The translations under genes and the position numbers were made by a program. The notes under the pieces were generated by a model that was given only the letters and a program-made list of their open reading frames with translations, was not told where the DNA came from and made no database searches. A DNA stretch of 64,000 nt from NCBI GenBank assembly GCA_965261545.1, contig CBDHDF010000010.1, forward strand, positions 448,001 through 512,000. Reading direction: 5' to 3'. Positions 55,251 through 63,248 of the stretch are shown here, piece after piece (position 1 is the first letter of the stretch; each line of letters opens with the position of its first letter). The stretch comes from Bdellovibrionales bacterium. GTDB lineage: Bacteria > Bdellovibrionota > Bdellovibrionia > Bdellovibrionales > UBA1609.

Positions 55251-57266
55251 ATGCCACTTTACTTAAAAAATGCTAAAAAACCACCACAACCAAGGGGGAC
55301 GTGTATGACTGCAAGTATGACCAAAAAAGCAACAACTCTCGCTGTAATTACAATAAGAGTTATTTGTTTAAATTTAGTTATGTTAGGTATAGGTTTTTGT
55401 TTGATTTTCTCTGGAAAATCCGCCCATGCCGAAAAATATATTTTAACTATGAAAACTCAGAAGGATTTTGCAAGGGTCTGGAATGAACTCAAAAAGACAG
55501 GTCACTCTACAACTAAAAATCATATTTCTTTCTTAGGACTCCCAGTGAAGAAGGTTGTGAGTCTCAAACACCTTGAAATATTTATTCTTGAATCCAAGAC
55601 AAATATAATATCAACACTTCAAAATAAACCTGGTGTTCATAGAGTTGAAAAAAATATTATTTTTCAAGGCCTAGACCCTAGGTTTAAAGAAAAAATTATT
55701 TCTAATATCCATACTTCTTTCAACAATACTCCTGTCCACAATAGAAATGGCCAAGGGGTATGGGGTGATAATAAAAAGTTGAACAAACACCCTCTCCCCT
55801 CCCAAATCCATTTTTTCTCCCTCCCCCATCTCTTAGAAGAGGCCCCCCCTCCCTTAACATGGGGACTGAGGTCCATTCATGCAAGCAAGGCTTGGGCCCA
55901 TAGCCAAGGAACCAACGTAAAAGTTCTTGTCATAGACACAGGTGTCGATAAAGACCACATCGAGCTTGAGGGAAAAGTTGAAAAGGGAGCTAACTTCTAC
56001 CAAGATGATTCTAAAGATGTTCCCTACCCCTACTATGATGACCATGGTCATGGGACCCACGTTGCAGGAACAGTGGTCGGAACAACTGTCGGCGTCGCCC
56101 CAAAAGCAAAACTCCTATCAGCTAAAGTTTGTGGTTTCTCTGGACGCTGCGATCTTGCTGCTATGCTCGCCTCTATCAACTGGGGAGTGGAAGAAAAAGT
56201 GGATGTGATCAATATTTCTATAGGAGGCCCCCGCGCCAGCGAAGCAGAAAGGGTCGCCTATGCAAAAGTTACTGAAGCCGGAGTTTTTGTGGTTGCCGCT
56301 GCGGGAAATAGCGGCACCCCCGACCTCGCCTATCCGGCTCGTTTTGAATCCGTATTTAGTGTCGGAGCCATCAATGAAAAGATGGAGAAGGCTCGCTTTT
56401 CACAATATGGCCCTGACTTAAACCTTGTCGCCCCCGGGGAATCCATTAAGTCAAGTACTCCAGGAGAGGCCCCCAGTTCCACACTGCAAGTCGATGGCTT
56501 TGGTGAAGTTGAAAACGTAGCGGCTATTGGTACGAATGTTCCAGAGGCCCCTGTTCAAGGCCCATTGGTTCATATTGGCTACGGACAAGAATCCGATGTA
56601 AAAGACTTAGACCTCACAGGTAAAGTCGCTCTCATTTCTCGTGGAAAACTATCCTTTCTTAAAAAAGTCCAAAATGCCATAAGCAAAGGAGCCATCGGAG
56701 TGATTATTCACAATAACACCACGGGCCTGATGGTCCCGACTCTCGATAAAAAAAATCCTGTGAGCATACCTGTGGTTTCCATTGGGCAAAGTGACGGAGA
56801 AAATATTCGCACTCAATTAGATCAAGAAATTGTGGTGAATACGTCCATTGCCATAGTACTAAAACCTGCCTATGAATATTACAGTGGAACCTCCATGTCT
56901 AGCCCCCATGTGACAGGTGTGGCAGCCTTAATTAAATCCGCTTATACAGGTCTTAAAGAAAAAGATATTAAGGACATTCTTTTGAAAACAGCGACGGACC
57001 TCATGGATACCAATAAGTTTGGCGCAGGACTCGTCAATGCAGAGGCCGCAGTCATAGAAGCTATAAAGCGAAAAGAAGAGGGCGAGAAGCAGCCTCCCGA
57101 CGAAGGCGAAACTCCTCCAGATGAGAGCGAAACTCCTCCAGATGAGGGCGAGACTCCTCCAGATGAGGGCAAGACCCCTCCAGATGAGGGCGAAACTCCT
57201 CCAGATGAGGGCGAGACCCCTCCAGATGAGGGCGAGACTCCTCCAGATGAGGGCGAGGGAAATTAA
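55251..57266 (+). CDS. S8 subtilase with PA domain and acidic repeat tail; start uncertain
   Basis: VIDTG, HGHGTHVAGT, AAAGNSG, PA insert (GKVALISRG), SGTSMSSPHVTG. Confidence 0.93.
   Translation: MPLYLKNAKKPPQPRGTCMTASMTKKATTLAVITIRVICLNLVMLGIGFCLIFSGKSAHAEKYILTMKTQKDFARVWNELKKTGHSTTKNHISFLGLPVKKVVSLKHLEIFILESKTNIISTLQNKPGVHRVEKNIIFQGLDPRFKEKIISNIHTSFNNTPVHNRNGQGVWGDNKKLNKHPLPSQIHFFSLPHLLEEAPPPLTWGLRSIHASKAWAHSQGTNVKVLVIDTGVDKDHIELEGKVEKGANFYQDDSKDVPYPYYDDHGHGTHVAGTVVGTTVGVAPKAKLLSAKVCGFSGRCDLAAMLASINWGVEEKVDVINISIGGPRASEAERVAYAKVTEAGVFVVAAAGNSGTPDLAYPARFESVFSVGAINEKMEKARFSQYGPDLNLVAPGESIKSSTPGEAPSSTLQVDGFGEVENVAAIGTNVPEAPVQGPLVHIGYGQESDVKDLDLTGKVALISRGKLSFLKKVQNAISKGAIGVIIHNNTTGLMVPTLDKKNPVSIPVVSIGQSDGENIRTQLDQEIVVNTSIAIVLKPAYEYYSGTSMSSPHVTGVAALIKSAYTGLKEKDIKDILLKTATDLMDTNKFGAGLVNAEAAVIEAIKRKEEGEKQPPDEGETPPDESETPPDEGETPPDEGKTPPDEGETPPDEGETPPDEGETPPDEGEGN
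57093..57260 (+). repeat. Eight copies of a 21-bp coding repeat (PPDEGET)
   Basis: CCTCCAGATGAGGGCGAGACT variants. Confidence 0.95.
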
Positions 57267-57268
57267 TC

Positions 57269-57950
57269 TTGACTCAATTACAATTTTTTACAAAATGGAC
57301 TTTTTCTAGCATCATCCATTTGTCTCATCATTATCAATGCTTTGGGCTGTGGAGATGGAGAGAAAAATCAATACGAATCACCCTTCAGCGATCCCTCTAC
57401 TTCTTTTATCTCTGTATGGCGGCTTGACAACGACAACGAGTCCATCACTCTTCCCTTACGCTCAGGCTATGATTATAATTTTACGGTGGATTGAGGTGAT
57501 GGCTCTTCCAACGAAATCACAGCCCATGATGACAGCGACATCACCCACACCTACACAAAGGTTGGAGATTACACTGTCATCATCTCAGGAGAGCTTGAAT
57601 CTTGGTTTTTCAACAACAGTGGGAGCAAAGATAAGATCATTTCTGTAAAGAATCTGGGAAATATGGGATGGACCAACTTGGAGGGAGCCTTTGAGGGCTG
57701 CAGTGAGCTCGTAGAAGTCATTGGAGGCAACACCTCTCGTGTGACAAATATAAATCGCATGTTTAAAGGGGCCACCTCCATAAAAAATATTGACTTCACT
57801 CCATGGGATTTCGCCCGTGTGACAGAGATAAATGAAACTTTCAGCGACTTCACACTTGCTACAAGGGTTTATAACACCCTACTTCATCGACTCCTGAGAC
57901 CTCCACTCAAGAAAATATTACCTTAGATGTGGGTAGCTCTAAGTACGACA
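57269..57950 (+). pseudogene. DUF285/BspA-like surface lipoprotein pseudogene
   Basis: One frame reads NALGC...SFISVWRL...ITLPLRSGYDYNFTVD*GDG...HTY...GWTNLEGAFEGC; TGA at 57492-57494 where Trp is expected; frameshift near 57895 before ENITLDVGSSKY; truncated at ~57950. Confidence 0.85.
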
Positions 57951-57954
57951 CAAT

Positions 57955-58368
57955 GCCATTCGTCTATGAAAAAGTATGTCAAGAAAATATACCTATCCAT
58001 GTTGCAAAAAATTACCATCTTTTGCTGCATACGGTCACCCGTCCTTCCGAAATCTCTCACCAAGTTCTTTCTAGCACTTCTTCTTCATGGTTAATGGCTT
58101 TTTATTTACATCTCTAAAACAACATATTCCTATGATTCGTCTATTTGGACACTCTTAATTCAAGACCGGTTGGAAAATGCTCCTTCCTACAATCTTCAAT
58201 TTGGGTCATCGTAAATGTTAAGGAATAGAGGACGTACTAATCGTTTAAATGAACCTTTATGGCTATCGAATGGATTGAGCTATCTATCCTCACCTCATAA
58301 TAAAGTCATTGTCTACTTTTCGCTATATGCTTAAAGAACTACTGAGATTTTTATGAGGCTGTTTTAAT
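57955..58368 (-). mobile_element. IS110-family 3' end: last codons of the transposase plus right-end non-coding region
   Basis: Removing the IS256 lets the transposase frame continue ...YRKYKNVKY-IKTAS* (stop at 58353-58351); end-like motifs CTTGAATTAAGAGTGTCCAAATAGACGAAT and CTTGACATACTTTTTCATAGACGAAT. Confidence 0.6.
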
Positions 58369-58376
58369 ATATTTTA

Positions 58377-60202
58377 GAGCCTGTAAACTATTTTGTGTAA
58401 CTGCCGAATCATATTAGGATGAACTATCATCCTGAAAGGAGAAGGCAGAATGGATATCAAGACAATAGGCAAGGAACTAGCGAAGAACGTCAAGACCCAA
58501 AAGGATTTATCCGACATAACGGGTCAACTGATGAAGGTTGTTTTAGAGACAGCTCTTAATGCGGAAATGGACGATCACCTAGGTTATGAGAGGCATGAGA
58601 AGTCTGAGACCCGCAAATCCAACACTCGCAATGGTTACAGTAGAAAGACCATAAAGGGAGAGAAAGGCGAGGTGGAGCTTCAGGTCCCCCGTGACCGAAG
58701 TGCCTCCTTTGAGCCCCAAGTCATTCCCAAAGGCAAGACTCGTCTTGAGGGCTTTGAAGACAGTATTCTGACCCTCTATGCGAGGGGAATGACGACCAGG
58801 GATATTCAAGGAGCTATCAAAGACCTCTACCATGGTGCAGAGATATCCCACTCAGTGATAGCCAACGTGACGGATGCTGTTATTGATGAAGTTACGGCTT
58901 GGCAGAACCGCCCCTTGGATAGCACTTACCCTATCGTATTTTTGGACTGTATCGTGGTGAAGGTCCATCAAGACAAGAGAGTTATTAATAAGGCGATTTA
59001 CCTAGCTCTTGGTATTACAGAGGAGGGTCAGAAAGACTTGTTGGGCCTATGGATTTCTGAAAATGAGGGTTCAAAGTTTTGGTTGAGTGTTTTGACTGAG
59101 CTGCAAAATCGAGGGTTGAAAGACGTATTTATATTTTCTGTAGATGGTCTTACAGGTTTTCCTCAAGCCATTTCAGCGGCTTTTCCCAAGTCTAAAGTGC
59201 AACTGTGCATTGTCCATATGGTCCGCAATTCCCTTCGCTATGTCCCTTCCAAGGATATGAAAGCTGTCGCCCAAGACCTCAAGTCCATTTATGGCTCTAC
59301 GACTCTGACAGAAGCTGAAAAGGCCCTTGAGGAATTTTGTACCAAGTGGTCTTCAAAGTATCCGAATATTGAAAAGTCTTGGCGTAGGAATTGGGACAAT
59401 CTCATCACTATTTTCGATTATCCGGATGAAATCAGAAAGATTTTTTATACCACAAACGCCATAGAGTCGTTAAATAGCGTGATCCGCAAGGCGATCAGAA
59501 ATCGTAAGATATTTCCCAGTGATCGGTCGGCTTTAAAAGTTGTATATTTAGCGATAAAAATGGCCTCTAAGCGATGGACACGACCATTACACAACTGGAA
59601 GCCAGCCATGAACAGGTTTGCCATTGAATACGGTGACCGTTTTGACAACTAAGTTTTTTAATAAGGTCCACCACCTGCCTTATAAGGGGGCTTAAAAGCC
59701 CCTCTAAGGCGTTGACAGAAGTACTGGAATACCGAGACTATGGTTAGGGTAATATAGTATGGGAACCTAAATACATGCCCTCTTGGTGCAGATTTGGGTT
59801 TCCATTTTTTTTCATGTTTCATCCCAATGCTGGTATTTCTCGAATATCCCAAGTTAAAAAAAATAAAAAAAAGGGGGTAATATAGTATGGGAACCTAAAC
59901 ACATGAACCCTTTGATGAGATTGGAATTTCCATTTTTTTGAGAGAGCTATTGCTGATTTTTTTCCAATCAAGATGATAATTATTTATTTGAGTTCTTTCC
60001 AGTTCTGATATGATCCCATTACGGCTCCATCTCCCCATTAAATTATAATGCATTGTGACTGACAAAATCGCTTGAAGGAAAAAATGTCAATTATACATTG
60101 ACGAATAATATGGGGCTGTGCTTTTTACTAGGAGTGGAGCCACATAAGTGGCTTTAAGATTTAAGAAAAAAATTGCAGTTACACAATTATTTTTACAGTC
60201 CC
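58377..60202 (+). mobile_element. Complete IS256-family element, 1826 bp, with 8-bp TSD
   Basis: Left TIR GAGCCTGTAAACTATTTTGTGTAACTGC; right TIR (reverse complement) GGGACTGTAAAAATAATTGTGTAACTGC; ATATTTTA duplicated at 58369-58376 and 60203-60210. Confidence 0.93.
58450..59652 (+). CDS. IS256-family (Mutator-like) DDE transposase
   Basis: RNGY, VPRDR, LYARGMTTRDI, FLDCI, VDGLTGF, QLCIVH, YTTNAIES. Confidence 0.97.
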   Translation: MDIKTIGKELAKNVKTQKDLSDITGQLMKVVLETALNAEMDDHLGYERHEKSETRKSNTRNGYSRKTIKGEKGEVELQVPRDRSASFEPQVIPKGKTRLEGFEDSILTLYARGMTTRDIQGAIKDLYHGAEISHSVIANVTDAVIDEVTAWQNRPLDSTYPIVFLDCIVVKVHQDKRVINKAIYLALGITEEGQKDLLGLWISENEGSKFWLSVLTELQNRGLKDVFIFSVDGLTGFPQAISAAFPKSKVQLCIVHMVRNSLRYVPSKDMKAVAQDLKSIYGSTTLTEAEKALEEFCTKWSSKYPNIEKSWRRNWDNLITIFDYPDEIRKIFYTTNAIESLNSVIRKAIRNRKIFPSDRSALKVVYLAIKMASKRWTRPLHNWKPAMNRFAIEYGDRFDN

Positions 60203-60210
60203 ATATTTTA

Positions 60211-60419
60211 CATTTTTGTATTTCCTGTAGGGTTTAAATTTTTCTTCAGACTTCAAAACTCCTAATGCTAAAGCAGCTATTCTTCTTGAAATGGCGTTCC
60301 TGGCTTTGTGTGGTGGATAATTTCTTTCTGTAATTAACTGCTCATACCAGTCATTGAATTCATTTTTCCCACCAATAACTGTCAATGCAGCCACCTTAAA
60401 AACACATTTCATTTGCCGA
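60211..60419 (-). pseudogene. IS110-family transposase C-terminal fragment, cut by IS21 on one side and IS256 on the other
   Basis: RQMKCVFKVAALTVIGGKNEFNDWYEQL...KARNAISRRIAALALGVLKSEEKF resembles the IS110 (Transposase_20) C-terminal helices. Confidence 0.72.
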
Positions 60420-61087
60420 TGTTAGGCGCCAATTAAAATTGGCCATTTTTAGAAGCCGTCGCCAATGAAAAACGGCCAGTTGATGATGTACTGATTTAGT
60501 TATTCTTCGTTCAGAGTTTAGTCAAGTGTCTTTATTTTGCTCATCATTTAACTCCGACTATGCCACAAGATTCTGAGGAATGATTTTCTGCCCACCACTT
60601 TTGGCATGACCCCAAATGCATCCTTCAGCCCTATGGCAGAGGTAAATGGAGTATTTTTCAGGATTCCTTGGCGCAGCTAATGTCTAAAGCTCCGCAAGAG
60701 TGACGAGCAAATAGTACGGTAAAAGCCAGTTATCCATAAATTTATCCATGGCGACACTGCGGCTGTGACCCCGATGTCTAGCAACGCAGTGCTGCTGGTG
60801 TGCCCAGCACAATATAGGAGGTAACGACTATAGAAAGCTGACATGATGATGGTGGTAGGTCCACCGTTCTCGATTTACAGGAATTGGGAACAAACAACCC
60901 TAAGCTGCGCAGGGGGCAAGACCTGGGTGGTGAGCGTTAGGGAAAAGGCCAGAATAACTGGTCATGTGTAGTCTGTGAAGATGAGCGAAAGCGAACCATC
61001 GATGAGGCGTCGAAAATGCGTTAGTTGCTGTCAAAACCAAGGTCCCGGTAGTACCTTGGGATAAACTCGGAAGGTACCTGATTACTG

Positions 61088-63248
61088 GTCGAGTAGGGAA
61101 GGAGGTTTCCCCCCTTCCCCCTCCCAGAGCCGAACGTGCGCAACTAACGCATTCGGCTCCTCTGATTATAGGTTCACTGCTTGGTTGGGATAGGCGCACC
61201 GACTCTCACTAGTGTGAAAGTTTTCCAGCTTTCCTTACTAGACATTCCATTGGAATTGCTGGAAGGGGCGCCTAATCCTTGGTATGGGTAACGGGAAGCG
61301 CTTCAACAATCGGTTGTACGCCTCCCAGTTGATCTGGCGTCTTTGCGTCCTCCTCATGAGCCACTTTTTCCAAATTCTGATGACCACCCGGTAGAACCGC
61401 TTTATGTTGCGGTAGTTCCCGGGTATACCATAATAGGCATAGTGACCGTAGAGAAACTGCTGCAAACGGTTGGCTTGATGCTTGAGGGGAGCATGACGAT
61501 GCCGTTTACACCAGAGGCTTACGGATGCAAGCCCCCGATCCAGACGACTTTTCATCGTGCCTCGAAAGACAACCCAGTTTCCCTTCAGAGATTTCCTCCA
61601 TGTGTGGCTGAAACCTAAGAAGTCGAACGACTGGATTTTTCTCACGTCCCTCTCGTATCCCTTGAGGTTCGTGCGGGAAATACGGTAGGGAGGAGGGCGG
61701 AAATCTACGATCCGAGACTTCTCGGGGTGCATTGTTAGCCCAAATCGAGCAAGTCTTTTTGGCAACACCTCGTAGATTCGCCGTGCGTCCTCTTCCCTCT
61801 GGAATCCCATCACGAAGTCGTCGCAGTATCGAGCCATAAACCCGTATCCTTTGAGTCGTGGTTTGACATCCTTCTCAAACCATTCATCTAAGACATAATG
61901 GAGAAATACGTTAGCCATGAGCGGGGAAGCCACCCCACCTTGCGGTGTACCTGATATCGGCTTGGTGGTTCGCCCCTTATCCATGATCTCTGCATTCAGC
62001 CATTTGTCTATCAACCGACGGATCACTCCGTCTCGCACTCGCTTGGCGAGAATCTTACGAAGCTCAGAATGAGAGATGGTATCAAAGAATTTCTGGATAT
62101 CAATATCTAATACCCAGTAGGCTCGATGGTCCATCATTTCATTGCGAATTCCCTCTAGTGCTTGGTGGCATGATCTTCCAGGACGGAAGCCATAGGAGCA
62201 GTTGTAGAATTCCTGCTCATACACCGCTTCAAGAACCATCACGACAGCTCTTTGAGCTACCTTGTCCTCGATCGTCGGGATGCCTAGTGGGCGCAGACTT
62301 CCATCGGCCTTGGGAATGTAGTGACGTCTGATTTTGGGCGCACGATAGCTCCCAGATTTCAGGCGTCCGAGAAGATTTTGAAGATTTTCCTCAAGCTTCT
62401 CTTCGTACTCCTTCGCCGTTATGTTATCTACACCTACCGCCCCATCCTTTCGGGTGAGACGCCACGCCTCTTTCAACCAATCTATGGTGATAAAGTGGTT
62501 GAGGGAAATTATAGCTTTGCCCTTCGTGTGTCTCGCTATCTCTGCTATCCGAGATTTTTTCGTTGACACTATCTTGGTTGGATTCAATGTTCCTCCTAAT
62601 GTTTCAAAATACTCGAGTCTATAATCAGGTTAGCCCTTCCCTCGTTTGGGTCCCCTGCAAGTTCAGGTTCCCCACTCTCAACGGTACTATGGCTACCTCC
62701 GACTCCCTACAACCCATCGCCAGTCCCTTATTGATTCGTTGTGGCTACCTTGGCACGGAGATTCTTTTCGCTGCGGGTTCTGACATCTCCGTTTGCAGAA
62801 CTCGCCCTAGGTTTTTTTTCACAGGATACCGACCTGCTTGCACGCCTCGGAGGTTGTAGGGCCTCCTGTGTTACTAGGTCACCTCGATACACATTCGCCC
62901 CGCTCTACGACCCCGGCAGAATTCACACGACCTCGCTCATCTATGGGCGTGCAAATGTTGCCCCCCATTCTCGACACTCGAAGGGCTTCTGCAATTTCGT
63001 TCTGTTTCGTGGCTCAATCACGCGGCTTTTGCATCGCTGTTTACGCTTTACGGATGTTGTTCCACCTCCCACCCCTCACCATTCGGTGTCGAGGTTTCAT
63101 GATGTCCGTGTCCGCACAAAACTCGCTTCCAGTCGGGTGAGCTAGCCCTTACTGGGTGGGGTTCCAACCCACAAGATGACTTCAAAGGATTTCAAAACTT
63201 CATTTCCTATTCCATTCATTCCTCCTTTCTAGCCTTTGCACAGCGCAC
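61088..63248 (-). mobile_element. RT-encoding group II intron (IIB, class E/F-like), 2161 nt
   Basis: Minus strand 5' GTGCGCTG; DV GAGCCGAATGCGTTAGTTGCGCACGTTCGGCTC; 3' end CCTACTCGAC; EBS1 candidate GTCGAG pairs with IBS1 CTCGGC. Confidence 0.92.
61238..62587 (-). CDS. ltrA: Group II intron reverse transcriptase/maturase without endonuclease domain
   Basis: GAVGVD, IPKADGSLRPLGIPTIEDK, SYGFRPGRS, DIQKFFD, GTPQGG, RYCDD, FDFLGF, maturase domain; no HNH domain. Confidence 0.96.
   Translation of the reverse strand: MNPTKIVSTKKSRIAEIARHTKGKAIISLNHFITIDWLKEAWRLTRKDGAVGVDNITAKEYEEKLEENLQNLLGRLKSGSYRAPKIRRHYIPKADGSLRPLGIPTIEDKVAQRAVVMVLEAVYEQEFYNCSYGFRPGRSCHQALEGIRNEMMDHRAYWVLDIDIQKFFDTISHSELRKILAKRVRDGVIRRLIDKWLNAEIMDKGRTTKPISGTPQGGVASPLMANVFLHYVLDEWFEKDVKPRLKGYGFMARYCDDFVMGFQREEDARRIYEVLPKRLARFGLTMHPEKSRIVDFRPPPYRISRTNLKGYERDVRKIQSFDFLGFSHTWRKSLKGNWVVFRGTMKSRLDRGLASVSLWCKRHRHAPLKHQANRLQQFLYGHYAYYGIPGNYRNIKRFYRVVIRIWKKWLMRRTQRRQINWEAYNRLLKRFPLPIPRIRRPFQQFQWNV

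What the first reader, a model, noticed from the sequence alone, without database searches (positions are those of the whole stretch)
59653..60174. IS256 carrying ~520 nt of structured non-coding cargo inside its TIRs
Seen: the TIRs and TSD place the right end 550 bp past the transposase stop. The interval has no convincing ORF but holds a hairpin at 59677-59710, two repeated stem-loop units, and a long bulged hairpin at ~60023-60141 (GGCTCCA/TGGAGCC, CCCCAT/ATGGGG, TGACA/TGTCA). Established: typical IS256 elements end within tens of bases of the stop codon, and I know of no RNA component for this family. Inference: a candidate transposon-encoded ncRNA, or a captured non-autonomous RNA-bearing element. 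The 5' part (GTCCACCACC...GGGGGCTT..AAGCCC..GTTGAC..GAGACTATGGTT) loosely recalls HEARO/omegaRNA openings, which is speculative.
Basis: partly seen in the sequence, partly recalled or inferred. Interest (0 to 1): 0.75.

Follow-up and report, generated by a model that had tools for sequence, protein, structure and literature searches.

The report
IS256 carrying scavenged non-coding DNA
An active jumping gene carries about 520-580 extra non-coding bases, partly shared with the ends of other jumping genes in the same genome; the stretch looks like picked-up baggage with a stop-signal-like hairpin, not like a conserved RNA gene.

Summary
The anatomy is real. The IS256 spans 58377-60202 with an 8-bp target duplication, and its right end lies 550 nt past the stop codon. 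All 61 copies with an intact 3' part carry the cargo (416-614 nt), so it moves with the element.

The RNA reading is not supported. The closest relative (87-93% aa) has a 31-nt tail. Across 135 predicted pairs there are 0 compensatory and 13 breaking changes. Repeat unit 2 does not fold as a stem-loop (z +0.7). A purpose-built HEARO 5' model scores the region 3 bits, against 46-48 for held-out HEARO-type ends. No RNA data exist to test expression.

Best reading: captured DNA in the one slot of a compact IS that tolerates insertions, perhaps acting as a terminator. Other IS256s of this phylum fill that slot with hairpins or different passenger genes. An unchecked scan note (e1-6659381) reports a similar shared module on other DNA.

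The parts
58369..58376 (+). Left copy of the 8-bp target site duplication
   Evidence: uninterrupted site at two other genome positions
58377..58404 (+). Left terminal inverted repeat of the IS256
   Evidence: same end type in relatives
58450..59652 (+). IS256-family (Mutator-like DDE) transposase, 400 aa, intact and under purifying selection among copies
   Evidence: PF00872 406 bits; NF033543 430 bits; 45 synonymous vs 20 non-synonymous variants in 42 copies, and all 10 variants carried by 16 or more copies are synonymous
59653..60174 (.). Lineage-specific non-coding cargo inserted between the stop codon and the native right end; 36% GC vs 45% in the transposase gene
   Evidence: the 93% relative goes from the stop straight into the same right-end sequence; present in 61 of 61 copies; GC
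59677..59710 (+). GC-rich hairpin after the stop codon, no U-tract; top deleted in 2 copies, other alleles in 10 copies
59747..59813 (+). Repeat unit 1: stem 59759-59805 followed by 8 T; terminator-like geometry (inferred); deleted in 1 copy
   Evidence: -23.4 kcal/mol, z -3.3; not called by the strict terminator scan
59875..59939 (+). Repeat unit 2: first 25 nt identical to unit 1, stem not formed
   Evidence: z +0.73
59832..60012 (+). Segment shared with the 295-nt 3' tail of an unrelated IS481-like (rve) element of the same genome; it lies just after the stop codon there too
   Evidence: 89% over 181 nt, 94.6% over the 147-nt core; that element's relatives have short tails
60030..60031 (.). 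Site where 47 of 61 copies carry a 63-nt piece of the outer left end of a co-resident IS110 element; an IS3-type element sits 1 nt away in one other copy
60023..60141 (+).
60135..60156 (+). Short stable hairpin competing with the long hairpin's outer helix
   Evidence: z -5.0; region picked after seeing the fold
60175..60202 (+). Native right terminal inverted repeat
   Evidence: near-identical in the 82% and 93% relatives
60203..60210 (+). Right copy of the 8-bp target site duplication

Best explanation
An ordinary, very active IS256 whose founder in this lineage picked up about 520 bp of foreign non-coding DNA between the transposase stop codon and the right inverted repeat, then multiplied with it. 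SHOWN: the cargo is a lineage-specific insertion; it travels with the element; parts of it are shared with the non-coding ends of two other IS families in this genome; it keeps gaining and losing pieces. FROM KNOWN BIOLOGY: IS256 moves through a circular intermediate made at its two ends, so whatever lies between the ends is carried along. INFERRED: this slot is the only place in a compact IS where an insertion breaks neither the gene nor an end. Pieces arrive by nested insertion followed by deletion, or by template switching at microhomologies, in a genome crowded with repeats. The likeliest function, if any, is local: unit 1 plus its T-run ends the transposase transcript. No trans-acting RNA is needed.
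For: (1) The closest relative (87% N-terminal, 93% C-terminal) has a 31-nt tail with the same end. Of 46 loci at >=60% C-terminal identity, 38 had a called right end: 37 at 29-56 nt and 1 at 319 nt; rows include several copies per genome. (2) No homologue of the cargo in 400 other genomes of the phylum (8 had only 25-46-nt low-complexity or TIR matches), in plasmids or phages, or among 12 metagenome and 28 viral exact-motif hits, none of which extended. (3) Patchwork: 181 nt shared with the IS481-like element's tail and 63 nt from the IS110 left end, found at about 40 IS110 ends in the genome. (4) No structural conservation: 0 compensatory, 6 one-sided and 13 breaking substitutions on 135 pairs; substitutions at 18 of 242 paired vs 10 of 250 unpaired sites, p=0.12; 19 indel events in the cargo vs 2 in the gene. 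(5) Both forms transpose: duplications flank 29 of 36 long and 5 of 7 short uninterrupted copies. (6) 45 target sites show no consensus (max 0.29 bit per position) and little excess match to the cargo (mean longest match 7.8 vs 7.5 nt). (7) The slot takes unrelated cargo in other IS256s. (8) 1.67 of 4.3 Mb is repeated three or more times, and other elements have inserted into the cargo at four positions. (9) Circular intermediate: PMC3942029, passages read.
Against: No copy has lost the cargo: 61 of 61 keep at least 416 nt. Substitution density in the cargo (23 of 493 sites) is below that of fourfold-degenerate sites (21 of 167; p=0.001), although for shared variants alone the gap is not significant (15 of 493 vs 8 of 167; p=0.33). 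The same segment sits in the same slot of two unrelated IS families, which selection could explain. The nearest full-length relative in the tree (L218, 72%, support 0.999) also has a hairpin-rich 319-nt tail (z -3.35), though with no detectable sequence homology. The source of roughly two thirds of the cargo was not found. The pair counts use the window allele's own fold, which favours 'broken'. Copies are only about 2% diverged, so power to see covariation is low, and a trans-acting RNA would not be under selection copy by copy.
Confidence: 0.62

Rival explanations
1. The repeat-and-hairpin segment is a selected cis-acting accessory module (terminator, insulator or mRNA-stabilising 3' end) that benefits any IS carrying it and has moved between IS families.
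For: Same segment just after the stop codon in two unrelated IS families whose relatives lack it. Unit 1 has a -23.4 kcal/mol stem followed by 8 T. Kept in nearly all copies; reduced substitution density. An unrelated hairpin-rich tail in L218.
Against: The part shared with the other IS holds unit 2, which does not form the stem, not unit 1's hairpin. No compensatory changes. The strict terminator scan finds 0 sites in either form. The other IS has only 2 copies with the tail.
Confidence: 0.17
2. The cargo encodes a trans-acting non-coding RNA that partners the IS256 transposase (guide, scaffold or regulator), like the bridge RNA of IS110.
For: Always carried. Strand asymmetry of folding in the window's form: z -3.0 plus vs -0.6 minus.
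Against: Absent from the 82-93% relatives that use the same ends. No target consensus and no target-cargo match. The asymmetry vanishes in the long form: -2.0 vs -2.2. No promoter excess: 3 vs 4.8 expected and 2 vs 1.9 expected. No Rfam family.
Confidence: 0.07
3. The 5' part (59665-59800) is a decayed HEARO/omegaRNA left end of an IS200/IS605-type element captured long ago.
For: Motif order resembles HEARO by eye. A motif pattern taken from this region pulled 8 true HEARO RNAs among 16 viral loci, but those motifs were chosen for the resemblance. The custom model does place a weak hit at 59666.
Against: That hit is 3.0 bits (E 10 in 24 kb), the weakest of 12 background hits; held-out HEARO-type ends score 46-48 bits. 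RF02033 finds 0 in this genome at E<=10 and 0 of 151 genomes of the phylum (controls silent). No RRXRR/IscB match (controls silent, so weak). Ten copies lack the 8 nt that give the HEARO-like opening.
Confidence: 0.07
4. The cargo encodes a small membrane peptide with a structured mRNA (type I toxin-antitoxin-like addiction module) on the minus strand.
For: In the long form the 63-nt piece is in frame and reads as a hydrophobic stretch within a 50-54-aa ORF.
Against: The hydrophobic stretch is simply the IS110 left-end DNA read backwards. 11+ long copies have a 1-nt deletion in it and the stop position varies between copies. No Pfam or Atlas support. Short copies without it transpose.
Confidence: 0.03

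Closest known systems
IS256 family (p-MULT 1), Guerillot et al. 2014, PMC3942029 (passages read)
   Same: Single Mutator-like DDE transposase, terminal inverted repeats, 8-bp duplication, apparently random targets.
   Different: 550-614-nt tail instead of about 30-45 nt. The passages read describe the IS256 family as containing only simple ISs.
Transporter ISs (tIS) and TMos, as defined in PMC9330008 and PMC3129680 (passages read)
   Same: Extra DNA carried inside or beside one IS and moved with it.
   Different: tIS carry passenger genes; here the cargo has no credible gene. TMos use a surrogate downstream end; here the native right end is kept and the cargo lies inside it.
Pack-MULEs of plants (recalled; search listing only)
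   Same: Mutator-superfamily element holding a patchwork of captured fragments between its terminal repeats.
   Different: This element is autonomous and bacterial, and the traced fragments come from other IS elements rather than from host genes.
HEARO / omegaRNA (Rfam RF02033)
   Same: Superficial order of short motifs in the first 130 nt.
   Different: Background score with Rfam and with a custom model; no 3' half; no IscB found.
IS110 bridge RNA (search listing only)
   Same: A non-coding end region inside an IS; 47 of 61 copies carry a piece of a real IS110 left end.
   Different: No target specificity and no conservation in relatives. The borrowed piece is the outermost 63 nt of a 336-nt end, probably outside the bridge RNA proper (inferred, not tested).

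Membership tests
IS256 family | Mutator-like DDE transposase of about 400 aa | tested here: met
   NF033543 430 bits, cut-off 150; PF00872
IS256 family | Terminal inverted repeats of the family type | tested here: met
IS256 family | 8-9-bp target duplication, little target specificity | tested here: met
   45 distinct 8-bp-duplicated sites, no consensus
IS256 family | Circular transposition intermediate | not testable with these tools
   only assembled contigs were available
Transporter IS (tIS) | Extra DNA inside the ends, moved with the element | tested here: met
   61 of 61 copies
Transporter IS (tIS) | Passenger gene | tested here: not met
   no conserved ORF; no family match
HEARO / omegaRNA | Match to the covariance model | tested here: not met
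   custom 5' model 3.0 bits vs 46-48
HEARO / omegaRNA | IscB/HNH ORF downstream or in trans | tested here: inconclusive
   no ORF downstream; PF14239 0 in genome, but controls were silent
Conserved structured ncRNA (general) | Covariation among homologues | tested here: not met
   0 compensatory, 13 breaking changes on 135 pairs in 25 haplotypes; low power, no distant homologues found
Conserved structured ncRNA (general) | Discrete transcript | not testable with these tools
   no RNA holder listed
Bridge/guide RNA systems | Target sites match the RNA | tested here: not met
Type I toxin-antitoxin | Conserved small hydrophobic ORF with antisense partner | tested here: not met

The most novel reading that the evidence does not exclude
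The slot behind the IS256 stop codon is a working cargo bay. A hairpin-bearing module in it has moved between unrelated IS families. The 63-nt IS110 end piece, now in 47 of 61 copies, was selected because it is transcribed as an antisense or decoy sequence against a competing element: a primitive acquired memory between transposons. The related IS256 clade with swappable passenger genes would be the gene-carrying form of the same bay.
Probability: 0.1. Interest if true: 0.75.

Novelty: new variant of a known kind. Interest (0 to 1): 0.3.

Why it matters
As it stands this is a modest point. IS256 elements can gain and carry a patchwork of DNA from neighbouring mobile elements, a bacterial echo of Pack-MULE capture, and a hairpin-rich tail inside an IS is not by itself evidence of an RNA partner. 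The within-genome series of 61 copies records the capture step by step. The more promising lead is outside the window: IS256s of this phylum with nearly identical transposases and different passenger genes in the same slot, which would make the family a gene-cassette carrier.

Tried and rejected
Expression: no RNA holder listed; this is no evidence either way. Three contig runs (2 samples, 2 studies) hold the element with cargo, both forms, and the empty site of locus L010; contigs say nothing on transcription.

HEARO: rejected. The sequence-only profile gave no hit but included one doubtful sequence, and its filter passed nothing, so it is given no weight. The covariance model used 13 sequences: 8 of the 9 kept (from 80 loci listed) plus 5.

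Small protein or type I toxin: rejected. An ORF on the opposite strand of the other IS's tail gave only sub-0.9 Atlas hits.

RNA-guided targeting: rejected.

Homologues of the cargo: none in 60 relatives, 400 phylum genomes, plasmids, phages, metagenome or viral motif scans. Exact-motif scans miss diverged copies, so this means 'not found', not 'absent'. Neither transposase had relatives in viral contigs.

Homology between the distal parts of the two tails, and between the second halves of the two repeat units, was not above shuffles (145 of 500 and 58 of 300 as good), so a full 128-nt repeat is not claimed.

Literature: ten searches. Searches returned 0 papers; some searches listed 1-8 each, and no listing described an RNA or long non-coding tail in IS256. 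Only passages of PMC3942029, PMC9330008 and PMC3129680 were read; no supplements were read, and subscription journals and ISfinder were not searchable.

Full report
Observation. The element is an IS256 at 58377-60202. Its 400-aa transposase (58450-59652) scores 430 bits on NF033543. The ends are inverted repeats, flanked by an 8-bp duplication. The uninterrupted target, the last codons of a 352-aa IS110-like gene, survives at two other places in the genome. The right end is 550 nt past the stop. The z of -3.0 for the whole region falls to -2.0 in the commoner form and to -1.2 and +0.2 in 400-nt windows without the terminal repeat. In that setup 6 of 60 random non-coding windows of the genome reach -3 (10-15 shuffles each, so rough).

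The cargo moves with the element. The genome holds 67 left and 69-70 right ends. All 61 copies with an intact 3' part carry cargo of 416-614 nt, and no stop or right end without it was found. Forty-five distinct sites have a perfect 8-bp duplication. Contigs from two studies hold both forms and an empty site. The transposase is under purifying selection.

The cargo is lineage-specific. The closest relative found (87% N-terminal, 93% C-terminal, on two contigs of one genome) goes from the stop codon into the same right end in 31 nt. Relatives at 82% have 31-34 nt. Among 46 loci at 60% or more C-terminal identity, 38 had a called end: 37 at 29-56 nt and one at 319 nt (rows are not independent). 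No homologue was found in 400 genomes of the phylum, in plasmids, in phages, or by exact motifs in metagenomes and viral contigs.

The cargo is a patchwork. First, 59832-60012 is 89% identical (94.6% in a 147-nt core) to the 295-nt tail of an unrelated 381-aa IS481-like element present with that tail in two copies. That element's relatives end about 30-105 nt after the stop in most loci, read by eye, so its tail is also an acquisition. Its copy begins inside the spacer after unit 1, which suggests it was cut from an already duplicated array (inference). Second, 47 of 61 copies have 63 extra bases at 60030/60031. These match the outer left end of an IS110 element with about 40 such ends in the genome and stop 3-4 nt short of its terminus. 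The short copies are the diverse ones and the other IS lacks the piece, so it is a later gain that spread with the latest burst (inference). An IS3-type element sits one base away in another copy, and further insertions hit the cargo at three other positions.

No sign of a conserved RNA. On 135 pairs with probability above 0.6, the 25 cargo haplotypes show 0 compensatory, 6 one-sided and 13 breaking substitutions, and stems are not depleted of change. The cargo has 19 indel events against 2 in the gene. Target sites have no consensus and no clear match to the cargo. Rfam gives nothing. I tested the HEARO idea directly because the motif order does look similar. A model from 13 HEARO-type 5' halves scores the region 3.0 bits, last of 12 background hits in 24 kb, while held-out HEARO-type ends score 46-48.

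Results against this reading. The cargo has never been lost. Its substitution density is below that of fourfold sites (p=0.001), though not for shared variants (p=0.33). The nearest full-length relative, L218, has its own hairpin-rich 319-nt tail in four identical copies, unrelated in sequence. Divergence among copies is only about 2%, so covariation would be hard to see. Expression could not be tested. About two thirds of the cargo has no traced source.

How it most likely works. IS256 elements move through a circle formed at their two ends (PMC3942029, passages), so internal DNA rides along. The few bases between stop codon and right repeat are the one place where an insertion harms neither gene nor end (inference). 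In a genome with 1.67 of 4.3 Mb repeated, nested insertion with deletion, or template switching at short homologies, supplies fragments (inference; the TCCA repeats at the 63-nt piece fit this). The enlarged founder then expanded. Unit 1 with its 8-T run may end the transposase transcript, but the strict scan does not call it.

The slot is a general cargo bay. Other IS256s in the searches carry 110-180-nt hairpin tails, 271- and 319-nt hairpin strings, or 805-843-nt tails each with a different small ORF that begins with a hydrophobic stretch. L220/L222 and L259/L260 have nearly identical transposases but unrelated passengers, and L259 has two in tandem behind a repeated motif. The four passenger proteins tested have no Pfam family over its cut-off.

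Comparison and verdict. It is a member of the IS256 family on every testable feature. It works like a transporter IS but lacks the passenger gene. It is not a HEARO or bridge-RNA system. Ten literature searches found no description of an RNA or long non-coding tail in IS256, within an open-access library only. Two unchecked scan notes bear on it: one on the same IS110 element and one on another enlarged IS256. Verdict: real feature, new variant of a known kind, interest 0.3; about 0.1 probability for a selected, inter-transposon function that would deserve 0.75.

Noticed in passing
L220:2698-3510, L221:2695-3537, L222:1566-2370, L258, L259, L260:2689-3494: An IS256 clade in the host's family and phylum (45-47% identical to ours) carries 805-843 nt (L259 over 1480 nt) between stop codon and right end, each with a different small ORF with a hydrophobic N-terminus; near-identical transposases have unrelated passengers and L259 has two behind a repeated motif. 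Looks like exchangeable cassettes; more promising than the present finding.
   Followed up: partly
L218:1175-1494 (minus strand; G261): 72%-identical IS256 with a 319-nt hairpin-rich tail (z -3.35) in 4 identical copies, containing a near-consensus outward promoter-like pair of hexamers seen by eye; unrelated in sequence to our cargo.
   Followed up: partly
L117:1459-3017 (G000:C2:825-827 kb) and L116: IS481-like rve element, 381 aa, with a 295-nt tail sharing about 180 nt with the IS256 cargo; relatives have short tails.
   Followed up: yes
L115 (G000:C7:121.5-129.4 kb): Tandem array of four IS110 copies, each with a frameshifted transposase (319 + 103 aa), about 1.7-1.9 kb apart.
   Followed up: partly
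window 60179-60412 (minus) and 58360-58376: The IS256 landed in the last codons of an IS110-like gene (352 aa where intact; 100 bits on NF033542, below cut-off; weak TIGR-Tas hit).
   Followed up: partly
window 60851-60966 (+), 61088-61161 (-), 61238-62587 (-): Two group II intron pieces on opposite strands: a D1-D4 fragment and a D5/D6 with an RT ORF of 449 aa. Part of a nest of elements inside elements.
   Followed up: no
G000:C10:129197-131711 and C7:165162-168889: A 625-nt insertion at position 89/90 of the IS256 in two copies; four copies are interrupted at this same base. Its size equals the mini group II intron of note e1-5057676; identity not checked.
   Followed up: no
L057, L059, L062, L065, L072: IS256s of Bacteroidota carry 110-137-nt tails that form one long hairpin.
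   Followed up: no
window 57072-57278 and 57337-57926: A 21-nt tandem repeat coding for a PPDEGET tail on a subtilase-like ORF, followed by a broken DUF285 gene.
   Followed up: no
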